Assembly (NCBI GenBank): GCA_011364965.1
Contig: RDOB01000001.1
Coordinates: 96,001 to 160,000 of the forward strand
Source of the DNA: Candidatus Heimdallarchaeota archaeon
GTDB lineage: Archaea; Asgardarchaeota; Heimdallarchaeia; Hodarchaeales; Hodarchaeaceae
DNA length: 64,000 nucleotides
Direction: 5' to 3'
A model generated the notes under the pieces. That model ran no database searches, was not told the DNA's origin, and saw nothing but the letters and a program-made list of their open reading frames with translations. The translations under genes were made by a program, and so were the position numbers. Position 1 is the first letter of the stretch. Every line of letters begins with the position of its first letter. Positions 9,260 through 41,593 of the stretch are shown here, one piece after another.

Positions 9260-9904
9260 ATGAATCTAGAAATTAATAATACAGATGAGGAGGACTATAT
9301 TCCCAAATTAGAGTTTAATATGGATAATCTATACATTTCTATTTGTGATCCTCAAGCAAAAAGTATTTTTAATAATGGATACTTTGGCCAATGGACATCA
9401 GAAGCTGAAGATGAGCTCAAATTGGAACCAGAAGAGATACTTCTTCTTTTAGATAGAGCTCGAATTGAAGTATATCATTCAGAAAACGGAAACCTAATTT
9501 CCCAAAGTGAACTCGTAGCTCATTTTTCCAAAAAGGTTCAGAATTTCTGGAGCAGGTATCTCGTTTATAAAGATTTGAGAAACAGAGGTTACGTGGTTAG
9601 GATTGGAACACGAATAACAGCTCCTTTTCGAATATATCCGAGGGGTAGTAAACCAGGTGAAGCTGTCAGCAAAATTGTCGTGTTTCCGATGCCAGAAGGT
9701 GAGGATTTAAATCTTGATTTTCTTGATCAAATAGTTAAACAAGCAAAAATTGACAGAAAAAAGTTGCTTCTTTCTGTTATAGATAGTTTAGGAGATGTAA
9801 CATATTATCAGGCATCTCAATTAGAGTTAGAACCCAACGAACTCGAATATGAATATCGAGATGAACTCCGTGTGGAGGATCAAAACCTAGAGGAGGAGAA
9901 ATAA
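9260..9904 (+). CDS. endA: tRNA splicing (intron) endonuclease subunit
   Basis: YLVYKDLRNRGYVVR, FRIYPRG and GDVTYY motifs; several catalytic positions look divergent, so it may be a structural subunit. Confidence 0.85.
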   Translation: MNLEINNTDEEDYIPKLEFNMDNLYISICDPQAKSIFNNGYFGQWTSEAEDELKLEPEEILLLLDRARIEVYHSENGNLISQSELVAHFSKKVQNFWSRYLVYKDLRNRGYVVRIGTRITAPFRIYPRGSKPGEAVSKIVVFPMPEGEDLNLDFLDQIVKQAKIDRKKLLLSVIDSLGDVTYYQASQLELEPNELEYEYRDELRVEDQNLEEEK

Positions 9905-17725: not shown

Positions 17726-17946
17726 CTTTGATTCCTTCTCTTAATTGGTAAATCTATGCAAATGATTTCTTAAGATTAAGTTTATATCACTTGAATACAA
17801 ACGCATGAACGGATTTATGCTTGTATTTCTGCTTTAACTCATTTGTTGCCTCTTTTGAACTTCCCTTATATGGAATTCCATCATCTCAGGATTCGAATAA
17901 TTGATAGCGCGAATAATAAAACTCTTAGATCTAAATTGGCTTAACA

Positions 17947-18019
17947 GCCGCTGTGGCTTAGTTGGTAGAGCGACAGACTCGTAATCTGTTGGCCGGGGGT
18001 TCAAGTCCCCCCAGCGGCT
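17947..18019 (+). tRNA. tRNA-Thr(CGT)
   Basis: GCCGCTG/CAGCGGC acceptor; ACAGA-CT-CGT-AA-TCTGT; GGTTCAAGTCC. Confidence 0.95.
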
Positions 18020-18067
18020 TTATTTATGCTTTTAAATATATTTTGGAAATTAAATTAAGTTTTATGG

Positions 18068-37862: not shown

Positions 37863-37936
37863 GGGCCGGTGGTCTAGCTCGGTATGACGCCTCCCTCACA
37901 CGGAGGAAATCGATGGTTCAAATCCGTCCCGGCCCA
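37863..37936 (+). tRNA. tRNA-Val(CAC)
   Basis: GGGCCGG/CCGGCCC acceptor; CCTCC-CT-CAC-AC-GGAGG; GGTTCAAATCC. Confidence 0.95.
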
Positions 37937-41341: not shown

Positions 41342-41350
41342 AAAAAAAAA
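41342..41350 (-). terminator. Oligo-T terminator downstream of the 5S precursor
   Basis: A9 on + strand (U9 in transcript) just after the trailer stem. Confidence 0.55.
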
Positions 41351-41385
41351 TAATAATGTTACGCTTATGCCAAGGAGAGTTCTGT

Positions 41386-41506
41386 TTCCGGGTTCGGAAC
41401 GAGACCGGGTGTTCCTCAGGCCCTTTGGCCGGGCAAGTACCCAGCTTTCCGATGTTCCCGTAGGCGCTAGCACAACAGTACAGATCGGAACGGAGCCTAA
41501 CTTAAC
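41386..41506 (-). rRNA. rrf: 5S rRNA, circularly permuted (canonical 3' half 41506-41439, ACUU linker 41438-41435, canonical 5' half 41434-41386)
   Basis: Transcript reads GUUAAGUUAGGCUCCGUUCCGAUCUGUACUG...GGGAACAUCGGAAAGCUGGGU-ACUU-GCCCGGCCAAAGGGCCUGAGGAACACCCGGUCUCGUUCCGAACCCGGAA; 5S helices can be formed by hand. Confidence 0.92.
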
Positions 41507-41585
41507 TTTCGGCAGAATCTCGCAAAACTCGGCGTAACGCGTTGATTGGTGAGATTACACACCAATACGGGCACAATCAAGAATC

Positions 41586-41593
41586 TTTATAAA
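41586..41593 (-). promoter_or_regulatory. TATA box candidate for the 5S precursor
   Basis: TTTATAAA about 48 nt upstream of the leader stem; palindromic, so it could also serve mptE. Confidence 0.5.

What the first reader, a model, noticed from the sequence alone, without database searches (positions are those of the whole stretch)
41358..41538. BHB-type processing stem predicted to splice the permuted 5S into a 121-nt circle
Seen in sequence: leader and trailer are complementary (GUUACGC 41538-41532 with GCGUAAC 41364-41358; CCGAG/CUUGG; GAGA/UCUC; UUCUG/CAGAA). The stem ends in a relaxed bulge-helix-bulge: trailer bulge AAA (41387-41385), central helix CCGA/CCGG (3 bp plus an A-C mismatch) and leader bulge AAG (41508-41506). 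Established knowledge: archaeal EndA cuts after the second nucleotide of each bulge and RtcB ligates, as in circular pre-16S and pre-23S intermediates. Applying that rule gives CCCGGAA joined to GUUAAG, exactly the consensus 5S junction, in a 121-nt circle. A TATA box upstream and a U-tract downstream complete a stand-alone unit, and an EndA gene lies in this window. Inference: the ribosome carries a covalently closed 5S rRNA, or one re-opened at the ACUU loop.
Basis: partly seen in the sequence, partly recalled or inferred. Interest (0 to 1): 0.95.

Follow-up and report, generated by a model that had tools for sequence, protein, structure and literature searches.

The report
Back-to-front 5S rRNA gene, ring-forming
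This Hodarchaeales (Asgard) archaeon encodes its only 5S ribosomal RNA with the two parts in swapped order between tRNA-splicing-type cut signals. The transcript must therefore be cut and re-joined, most likely into a 121-base ring, which explains why 5S genes look "missing" in these relatives of eukaryotes.

Summary
Window 41386-41506 (- strand) is a circularly permuted 5S rRNA gene. It is the only 5S-like gene in the genome. [quoted passage not shown] A canonical BHB whose standard cut rule restores the normal 5S spacing was found in 43 of 60 loci from 18 of 21 Asgard families, against 1.7% of shuffled-flank controls. Both the outer helix and the 4-bp central helix covary. Two different registers give the same ligated product.

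In 151 sampled Asgard genomes, permuted and canonical 5S genes are complementary along family and class lines.

Two runs of one sediment study, labelled metatranscriptomic, each hold a closed 121-nt k-mer cycle covering only 41386-41506 and joined 41386 to 41506. That junction 16-mer is in none of 22 genomes of the genus. Caveat: the tool flags these libraries "RNA? (probably DNA)", and contigs cannot show ends.

EndA (two paralogs, one in the window) and RtcB are present.

Whether the ribosome keeps the ring is untested. The scan noted the same thing before on other DNA: 116 notes in at least 93 genomes. No paper in the searched library reports it.

The parts
41586..41593 (-). TATA-like box (TTTATAAA), about 48 nt upstream of the stem. 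The promoter role is inferred.
   Evidence: Read. Similar A/T boxes sit at a similar distance upstream of the homologous stems in other families. The sigma-70 scan does not apply to archaea.
41513..41538 (-). Leader strand of the processing stem. It holds a distal 7-bp helix, two 4-bp helices and the proximal 5-bp outer helix of the BHB.
   Evidence: Pairs are printed. The proximal helix is predicted de novo and covaries. Covariation of the distal helix was seen by eye in the sequences.
41509..41512 (-). 5' strand of the central BHB helix (CCGA). It pairs with 41388-41391 (3 bp plus an A-C mismatch).
   Evidence: Relatives have 4/4 pairs with compensating changes: CUGG/CCAG, CGUG/CACG, CCGC/GCGG, CAGG/CCUG.
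41506..41508 (-). Leader bulge AAG. The predicted cut lies between 41507 and 41506.
   Evidence: Geometry. The joint in the contigs starts at 41506, with a 2-nt ambiguity.
41386..41506 (-). Circularly permuted 5S rRNA, 121 nt. The order is helix II 3' strand, helices V/IV, helix I 3' strand, cap, helix I 5' strand, helix II 5' strand, helix III/loop C.
   Evidence: Rfam matches only model positions 27-51 (19.6 bits). The circular MFE gives the canonical 5S fold, and the rotated sequence is 92/128 identical to a canonical archaeal 5S. All helices covary. Model R1 scores 152 bits.
41435..41438 (-). ACUU loop capping helix I, where a normal 5S has its two ends.
   Evidence: Relatives have UUCG/UNCG tetraloops at this place.
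41388..41391 (-). 3' strand of the central BHB helix (CCGG). In the mature fold it is the 3' strand of 5S helix III.
   Evidence: The two pairings exclude each other.
41385..41387 (-). Trailer bulge AAA. The predicted cut lies between 41386 and 41385.
   Evidence: The joint in the contigs ends at 41386.
41358..41384 (-). Trailer strand of the processing stem.
41342..41350 (-). Run of nine T (U). It is the likely archaeal terminator, which is inferred.
   Evidence: T-rich tracts follow the stem in relatives.
9260..9904 (+). tRNA-splicing endonuclease (EndA) paralog, 214 aa. A second paralog of 156 aa lies on the same contig outside the window.
   Evidence: PF01974 62.8 bits and PF02778 25.2 bits.

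Best explanation
The locus is a stand-alone transcription unit for a circularly permuted 5S rRNA.

The primary transcript carries the 3' two-thirds of the 5S, then helix I closed by a short loop, then the 5' third. Its leader and trailer pair into a long stem. The inner end of that stem is a bulge-helix-bulge motif.

The archaeal tRNA-splicing endonuclease cuts after the second base of each 3-nt bulge, between 41507/41506 and between 41386/41385. RtcB then joins the 2',3'-cyclic phosphate to the 5'-OH. This restores the universally conserved ...CCCGGAA-GUUAAG... stretch between helix III and helix II (loop B) and gives a covalently closed 121-nt 5S.

What is shown:
- the permutation
- the conserved and covarying stem and BHB
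- restoration of the junction by the cut rule
- the existence of the joined 121-nt cycle in sequenced environmental material
- the presence of EndA and RtcB genes

What is inferred:
- that EndA and RtcB do the work
- that the ring, rather than a re-opened form, sits in the ribosome

My odds: cut and joined about 0.85; the ring is the ribosomal form about 0.55.
For: (1) Only 5S in the genome.
- RF00001 gives one sub-threshold partial hit.
- R1 gives one full-length hit.
- The two canonical 5S hits in the class lie beside bacterial 23S on small contigs, so they are contamination.

(2) The ring folds as a canonical 5S, and the rotated sequence aligns with a canonical archaeal 5S.

(3) The outer helix and all 5S helices are predicted de novo and covary.

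(4) The BHB is conserved.
- 43 of 60 loci in 18 of 21 families meet strict geometry and restore the canonical spacing, against 1.7% of shuffled flanks.
- 94% of stem cells are paired, against 32-39% when the partner is shifted.

(5) Central-helix covariation cannot be a duplication relic. Examples are leader CGUG with CACG, CCGC with GCGG, and CUGG with CCAG.

(6) Two registers give the same product: bulges AAG/AAA cutting ..CGGAA|GUUAAG, and bulges AAA/GAA cutting ..CACGGA|AGUUAAG.

(7) Runs X18 and X19 each hold one 151-nt contig, which is 121+30, a closed k=31 cycle.
- Depth is about 12.7.
- The contig covers only 41386-41506.
- The joint is 41506->41386 and includes the helix-I cap.
- Leader and trailer have no cover.

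(8) The junction 16-mer is in 0 of 22 genomes of the genus.

(9) Two EndA paralogs and RtcB are present.

(10) Helix I is capped by UUCG/UNCG tetraloops in many relatives, which look like structural caps rather than processing sites.

(11) There is a precedent. The permuted SRP RNA of Thermoproteus is cut by the splicing endonuclease and works as a circle (PMC4731332).
Against: - The two junction-bearing runs come from one study. Their library is 'METATRANSCRIPTOMIC WGS', and the tool flags them 'RNA? (probably DNA)'.
- They are contigs, which cannot show molecule ends, strand or relative abundance. They differ from the window at 2 bases, so they come from a close relative, not this strain.
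- A cycle in a k-mer graph could also come from head-to-tail multimers, for example rolling-circle or template-switch cDNA.
- In this sequence the central helix has only 3 bp plus A-C, and no inner helix follows the leader bulge.
- The BHB conformer competes with 5S helix III and is 4.1 kcal/mol less stable by nearest-neighbour energies.
- The single-sequence MFE is a different, non-conserved fold.
- In one family (f3) a hairpin sits between the outer helix and the central helix, so the motif there is not a textbook BHB.
- In a few lineages (f5, f6, part of f18) the rule gives one extra base or no clear motif.
- Nothing here shows which form is in the ribosome.
Confidence: 0.78

Rival explanations
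1. The ring is only a processing intermediate. After ligation an endonuclease opens the helix-I cap, so the ribosome holds an ordinary linear 5S. Permuted tRNAs and circular pre-16S/pre-23S are handled this way.
For: - Circular pre-16S/23S are generally re-linearised (PMC12918454).
- In this genus the cap is not a UNCG loop (ACUU, UAUU, GGUU).
- The cap tolerates a roughly 30-nt insertion in one f14 genome.
- Contigs cannot show ends.
Against: - No conserved sequence or structure marks the cap as a cut site.
- Many families have 4-nt UUCG/UNCG caps.
- The closed cycle includes the cap, with no leader or trailer cover in the same runs. Cap-spanning molecules therefore exist in material where the precursor was too rare to assemble.
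- The circular SRP RNA of Thermoproteus is functional as a circle.
Confidence: 0.2
2. The precursor is cut at the stem but never ligated. The ribosome uses a linear, permuted 5S with a nick in loop B, as in some organelle 5S rRNAs.
For: - The linear permuted RNA folds into the same helices.
- Permuted linear 5S exist in organelles (PMC4267664).
Against: - Junction-spanning cycles are present in two runs, although the junction is absent from genomic DNA of the genus.
- Without ligation there is no reason for two different BHB registers to restore exactly the canonical base count.
- RtcB is present.
Confidence: 0.06
3. The stem is an ordinary rRNA processing stem cut by other nucleases. The BHB likeness is incidental, and the 121-nt cycle in the public runs is an artefact or comes from DNA.
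For: - The runs are flagged 'probably DNA'.
- The BHB in this window is relaxed and is not the most stable conformer.
Against: - DNA of 22 genomes of the genus lacks the junction.
- DNA would also give leader and trailer cover, which is missing.
- The joint lies exactly at the two predicted bonds.
- The central helix covaries across the phylum, and chance gives the motif in 1.7% of controls.
Confidence: 0.04
4. Pseudogene or assembly artefact.
For: Rfam does not call it.
Against: - The same arrangement occurs in closed genomes and in about 85 of 151 sampled Asgard genomes.
- It is the only 5S in them.
- All helices show compensatory changes.
Confidence: 0.01

Closest known systems
Permuted, circularised SRP RNA gene of Thermoproteus tenax (Plagens et al. 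2015, eLife, PMC4731332)
   Same: A universal structured non-coding RNA is encoded in permuted order. Its new termini lie in a motif cut by the tRNA-splicing endonuclease. Ligation gives a circle that restores a conserved element and is the functional molecule.
   Different: The RNA is different (5S rRNA, a ribosome component). The spread is far wider: most families of a phylum rather than a few species. Function of the circle has not been tested here.
[quoted passage not shown]
   Same: A leader-trailer processing stem with a BHB, EndA cleavage, RtcB circularisation, and in some lineages a ring or a permuted form retained in the ribosome.
   Different: In those cases the gene order is normal and circularisation joins the natural ends. 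Here the gene itself is permuted and ligation is needed to build an internal conserved segment. These papers state that 5S is not processed this way.
Permuted tRNA genes (Cyanidioschyzon merolae; cited in PMC4267664)
   Same: The 3' part is encoded before the 5' part, there is a BHB at the joined termini, and a circular intermediate forms.
   Different: Permuted tRNAs are re-opened at the acceptor ends by RNase P and tRNase Z. No comparable signal is seen at the 5S helix-I cap.
Low-level circular forms of canonical 5S rRNA in Sulfolobus, Pyrococcus abyssi and Halobacterium (PMC12558985; bioRxiv 10.64898/2026.03.23.713588)
   Same: Circular 5S molecules are detected by junction reads.
   Different: Those join the natural ends of a normally ordered 5S. 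They have no BHB, have variable ends, are rare, and are read as intermediates or decay products.
Permuted organelle 5S rRNAs (Valach et al. 2014, PMC4267664)
   Same: A 5S with helix I closed and the termini moved elsewhere.
   Different: They are organellar and reported as linear permuted molecules. No BHB or ligation is involved.

Membership tests
5S rRNA (Rfam RF00001) | Score at or above the Rfam gathering cut-off (38 bits) on the genomic sequence | tested here: not met
   19.6 bits, model positions 27-51 only. This is expected for a permuted gene, because a covariance model cannot align a rotated order.
5S rRNA (Rfam RF00001) | Three-way junction with helices I-V and the conserved loop C and loop B/E sequences, once the order is restored | tested here: met
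   The circular MFE reproduces helices I-V. The rotated sequence is 92/128 identical to a canonical archaeal 5S. All helices covary in 24 sequences.
5S rRNA (Rfam RF00001) | It is the organism's 5S, with no other copy | tested here: met
   One hit in the genome (87% complete). No archaeal canonical 5S was found in 61 genomes of the class. The two canonical hits lie next to bacterial 23S.
Archaeal BHB (hBHBh') splicing motif | Two 3-nt bulges on opposite strands, each 3' of its strand of a 4-bp central helix | tested here: met
   Bulges at 41508-41506 and 41387-41385. The central helix has 3 bp plus A-C in this window. It has 4/4 pairs in 33 of 43 relatives that pass the test.
Archaeal BHB (hBHBh') splicing motif | Flanking helices on both sides (h and h') | tested here: inconclusive
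   The outer helix is present and covaries (5-15 bp). The inner helix h' is absent or only 0-3 bp, so the motif is of the relaxed hBHB kind.
Archaeal BHB (hBHBh') splicing motif | Cleavage by EndA after the 2nd bulge base | not testable with these tools
   Indirect only: the joint in public contigs lies at exactly these bonds, within a 2-nt ambiguity. EndA genes are present.
BHB-excised circular archaeal RNAs | Junction-spanning sequence in RNA that is absent from DNA | tested here: inconclusive
   A closed 121-nt cycle stands in 2 runs of one study labelled metatranscriptomic, but flagged 'RNA? (probably DNA)'. The junction is absent from 22 genomes of the genus.
BHB-excised circular archaeal RNAs | RtcB-type ligase present | tested here: met
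   PF01139, 552.9 bits, on contig 9 of the genome.
Permuted RNA genes that are re-opened (permuted tRNA type) | A defined processing site at the natural ends | tested here: not met
   Helix I is closed by 3-6 nt loops, UUCG/UNCG in many families. No conserved motif is seen there.

The most novel reading that the evidence does not exclude
Most Asgard archaea, including all sampled families of Heimdallarchaeia and the Hodarchaeales, build their ribosomes with a covalently closed circular 5S rRNA made by the tRNA-splicing machinery from a permuted gene.

The permuted state follows class lines. At least two whole classes keep the canonical gene. The permutation could therefore serve as a rare genomic change bearing on where the eukaryotic line, which has a canonical linear 5S, branches relative to these classes.
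Probability: 0.5. Interest if true: 0.95.

Novelty: new variant of a known kind. Interest (0 to 1): 0.9.

Why it matters
5S rRNA is a universal ribosome component, and its gene is normally trivial to find.

- **Annotation gap.** A permuted gene that needs splicing-type cutting and joining explains a practical puzzle: 5S genes "could not be predicted" in closed Heimdallarchaeum genomes (PMC8813620). MAG quality standards that ask for 5S therefore fail for most Asgard genomes. A rotated covariance model such as R1 fixes the annotation.
- **Biology.** It would add 5S to the RNAs that depend on EndA and RtcB. It predicts a ribosomal RNA without ends in the closest archaeal relatives of eukaryotes.
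- **Phylogeny.** It gives a discrete, hard-to-reverse character distributed along class lines within Asgardarchaeota.
- **Testability.** All of this can be tested directly in the Asgard cultures that now exist.

Tried and rejected
- **Rfam at gathering threshold:** no 5S anywhere in the window.
- **Single-sequence folding:** z -1.64, and the MFE is a non-conserved alternative that does not show the BHB. Only comparative analysis was informative.
- **Sigma-70 promoter and intrinsic-terminator scan:** does not apply to archaea and found no terminator.
- **Sequencing runs:** no RNA holder listed. Run X22, a true RNA-Seq run from the study of the likely source sample, had nothing laid. X20 gave a 214-nt linear contig of a more distant relative (10 differences) that runs into the flanks; it could be either precursor or DNA.
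- **Junction search in JGI metagenome contigs:** 6 hits, all canonical 5S genes of other archaea, one of them next to a 23S. They show that the ligated junction equals the canonical sequence but say nothing about the ring.
- **First BHB-finder pass:** it over-weighted outer-helix length and used too narrow a junction pattern that excluded GUCAAG. This was corrected.
- **Considered and dropped:** the idea that the central-helix strand in the leader is a relic of a tandem duplication. The leader is the complement, not a copy, of the 3' strand wherever that strand is not palindromic.
- **Family names:** families other than the window's own genus could not be named with the tools, because handles are anonymous. 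Labels such as Odinarchaeia for the 1.4-Mb closed genomes are inference.
- **Literature:** 8 searches found no report of a permuted or BHB-circularised archaeal 5S. Subscription-only papers are not covered.

Full report
**What is in the sequence**

On the minus strand, 41506 down to 41386 starts with GUUAAG and ends with GAACCCGGAA. In a normal 5S these two strings are adjacent and in the opposite order. Rfam finds no 5S in the window at its curated threshold. With permissive settings it aligns only 41410-41386 to model positions 27-51, which are helix III and loop C (19.6 bits). That partial hit is the only 5S signal in the whole 2.97-Mb, 87%-complete genome.

Between the two parts, helix I is closed by an ACUU loop (41438-41435). 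Folded as a circle, the 121-nt RNA gives the canonical three-way junction with helices I to V. Rotated to the usual order, it is 92/128 identical to a canonical archaeal 5S from a metagenome. So the object is a circularly permuted 5S gene.

**The stem and the BHB**

The one slip is that C41532 was used twice.

Reading 5' to 3' on the leader:
- the outer helix is UUCUG 41517-41513
- the central-helix strand is CCGA 41512-41509
- the bulge is AAG 41508-41506

On the trailer:
- the central-helix strand is CCGG 41391-41388
- the bulge is AAA 41387-41385
- the outer helix is CAGAA 41384-41380

Both bulges lie 3' of their central-helix strand. This is the orientation of the archaeal BHB, as in pre-tRNA (established knowledge).

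The motif is relaxed in this window. The central helix has 3 bp plus an A-C mismatch, and no inner helix follows the leader bulge. It also competes with 5S helix III, which uses the same CCGG. The BHB conformer is 4.1 kcal/mol less stable by nearest-neighbour energies. The single-sequence MFE is a third, non-conserved fold.

**Relatives**

The same arrangement is found in:
- 19 of 21 other genomes of the genus
- both genomes of a second family of the order
- by inspection, three further families of the class

RNAalifold on 18 sequences predicts the outer leader-trailer helix de novo, with up to 8 of 18 double changes per pair, together with every 5S helix.

On 24 sequences from five families, 91.5% of cells pair, against 70.8% in shuffles (0 of 500 reach it) and at most 47% when the partner is slid. 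All six outer-helix pairs show changes on both sides.

A public scan names the genus-level hits as Candidatus Hodarchaeota or Heimdallarchaeota MAGs, including B3_Heim and three 'chromosome' records. The host is therefore a Hodarchaeales-type Asgard archaeon. Earlier notes of this scan had suggested this.

**Phylum-wide pattern**

I built a covariance model of the permuted order (R1) and searched 151 genomes drawn across the phylum.
- Full-length matches of 40-154 bits occur in about 85 genomes. They come from all seven families of the class and from 14 other families.
- The canonical Rfam model passes its cut-off in 48 other genomes. These belong to six families: f11, f15, f17, f20, f27 and f28.
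- The weak R1 hits in those six families lie on the canonical genes.

The two states are complementary, and no genome shows both. Two whole classes are canonical throughout: 38 of 41 genomes in one and 17 of 19 in the other. The only canonical 5S hits inside the window's class sit beside bacterial 23S on short contigs, so they are contamination.

**Is the BHB conserved, and does the rule work?**

For 60 non-identical loci I searched around the model ends for four things:
- an adjacent outer helix of at least 4 bp
- a central helix with at least 3 of 4 pairs
- two 3-nt bulges
- a cut-after-the-second-base product that keeps exactly eight bases between GAAC and YAAG, as in canonical 5S

Of these, 43 loci in 18 of 21 families pass. 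Only 100 of 6000 controls with shuffled flanks pass.

Measured from the cut sites, 94% of stem cells pair, against 32-39% when the partner is shifted. That count is made on loci the finder had selected, so the shuffled-flank control is the fair test.

The central helix changes in a compensating way: CCGG/CCGG, CUGG/CCAG, CGUG/CACG, CCGC/GCGG, CAGG/CCUG and CCGA/UCGG. Where the 3' strand is not a palindrome, the leader strand is its complement, not a copy. A tandem-duplication relic is therefore ruled out.

Two registers exist:
- with bulges AAG/AAA the cut is ..CGGAA|GUUAAG
- with bulges AAA/GAA the cut is one base earlier on both sides, ..CACGGA|AGUUAAG

Both give the same ligated sequence. 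This is hard to explain unless ligation of precisely these ends is what selection sees.

Outer helices reach 10-15 perfect pairs in several families.

Exceptions:
- One family (f3, which includes two closed 3.1-3.3 Mb genomes) has a hairpin inserted between the outer and central helices.
- Three families (f5, f6, part of f18) give an extra base or no clear motif.

**Direct evidence for the joint**

No run on record as RNA holds the stretch. Three 'METATRANSCRIPTOMIC WGS' runs held a small share of its words, and I laid them together with one true RNA-Seq run.

Two runs of one sediment study each contain a single 151-nt Logan contig at depth about 12.7.
- The contig covers only 41386-41506.
- It goes back by 121 at 41506->41386, with a 2-nt ambiguity because both bulges begin with AA.
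- 151 equals 121+30, the length of a closed cycle in a k=31 graph, and the two contigs are different rotations of the same cycle.
- The cycle includes the helix-I cap, so it comes from a permuted gene and not from a canonical 5S.
- It differs from the window at two bases, so it comes from a close relative.
- Leader and trailer have no cover in these runs.

The junction 16-mer is absent from all 22 genomes of the genus.

Its limits:
- only one study
- contigs rather than reads
- the tool flags the libraries 'RNA? (probably DNA)'
- a cycle could also arise from multimeric cDNA

**Enzymes and the transcription unit**

- The genome has two EndA paralogs, each with the N-terminal and catalytic domains. 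One lies in the window at 9260-9904.
- Two different subunits suggest a heteromeric enzyme of the kind known to accept relaxed BHBs. This is inference from established knowledge.
- RtcB is present.
- A TTTATAAA box lies about 48 nt upstream of the stem, and a run of nine T follows it. Similar boxes and T-tracts flank the homologous units in other families.

**What remains open**

Nothing here shows which form sits in the ribosome.

For a retained ring:
- 4-nt UUCG/UNCG caps on helix I in many families
- no conserved feature at the cap
- the cap inside the closed cycle
- the precedent of the functional circular SRP RNA of Thermoproteus (PMC4731332)

For re-opening:
- the usual fate of circular pre-16S/23S
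- the non-UNCG cap in this genus

I put the ring in the ribosome at about 0.55, and cutting plus joining at about 0.85.

**Known or new**

The searched literature reports several related things:
- BHB-made circular pre-16S/23S, and circular or permuted 23S
- rare end-to-end circles of canonical 5S without a BHB
- permuted organelle 5S
- the permuted circular SRP RNA

One paper states that 5S is not processed this way. Another could not find 5S genes in closed Heimdallarchaeum genomes. No paper on a permuted or BHB-spliced archaeal 5S turned up.

Within this scan the same feature has been noted before on other DNA, with 116 notes in at least 93 genomes. I treat those as leads only. One of them gave me the Thermoproteus paper.

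Noticed in passing
L062:1501-1673 (genome G001, same genus); L098 (family f14): The permuted 5S of G001 carries a 29-nt insertion in loop C, after ..CAUUCCGA, that repeats CAUUCCG. A distant f14 genome has an insertion at the same place. Other f14 genomes have roughly 30-nt insertions in the helix IV region (L096) or in the helix-I cap (L097). These could be mini-introns or expansion segments of 5S.
   Followed up: partly
window 41544-41563 (-): A small hairpin (UUGGUG..CACCAA) lies in the leader upstream of the distal stem helix. It recurs with changed sequence in other genomes of the genus. Its function is unknown.
   Followed up: no
L023:1318-1641 (genome G023, family f2): Two tandem permuted 5S copies lie about 42 nt apart, each with its own covarying outer helix and BHB. 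The copies differ in helix II by compensating changes.
   Followed up: partly
L034, L036, L038, L040, L041, L054 (family f3): In this family the leader has an extra 6-8 bp hairpin (..CAUCUGGA..UCCAGAUG..) between the outer helix and the central BHB helix. This makes a three-way junction at the cut site.
   Followed up: partly
L008, L012, L015, L019, L021, L024-L027: Several MAG contigs of the genus end inside or right beside the 5S unit, and four genomes have two partial copies at contig ends. This suggests more than one copy or strain variation at this locus.
   Followed up: no
L030 (G023:C798), L031 (G006:C310): Short contigs with bacterial 23S plus canonical 5S in two Asgard MAGs. This is bin contamination that could be mistaken for the archaeon's 5S.
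   Followed up: yes
window 9260-9904 (+), and the same contig about 22 kb upstream of the window start (L082:1312-1782): There are two EndA paralogs, of 214 and 156 aa. The longer one also gives a weak Sen15-type match. They may form a heteromeric splicing endonuclease.
   Followed up: partly
window 17946-18020 and 37863-37936 (+): tRNA-Thr(CGU) and tRNA-Val(CAC) genes, both uninterrupted.
   Followed up: no
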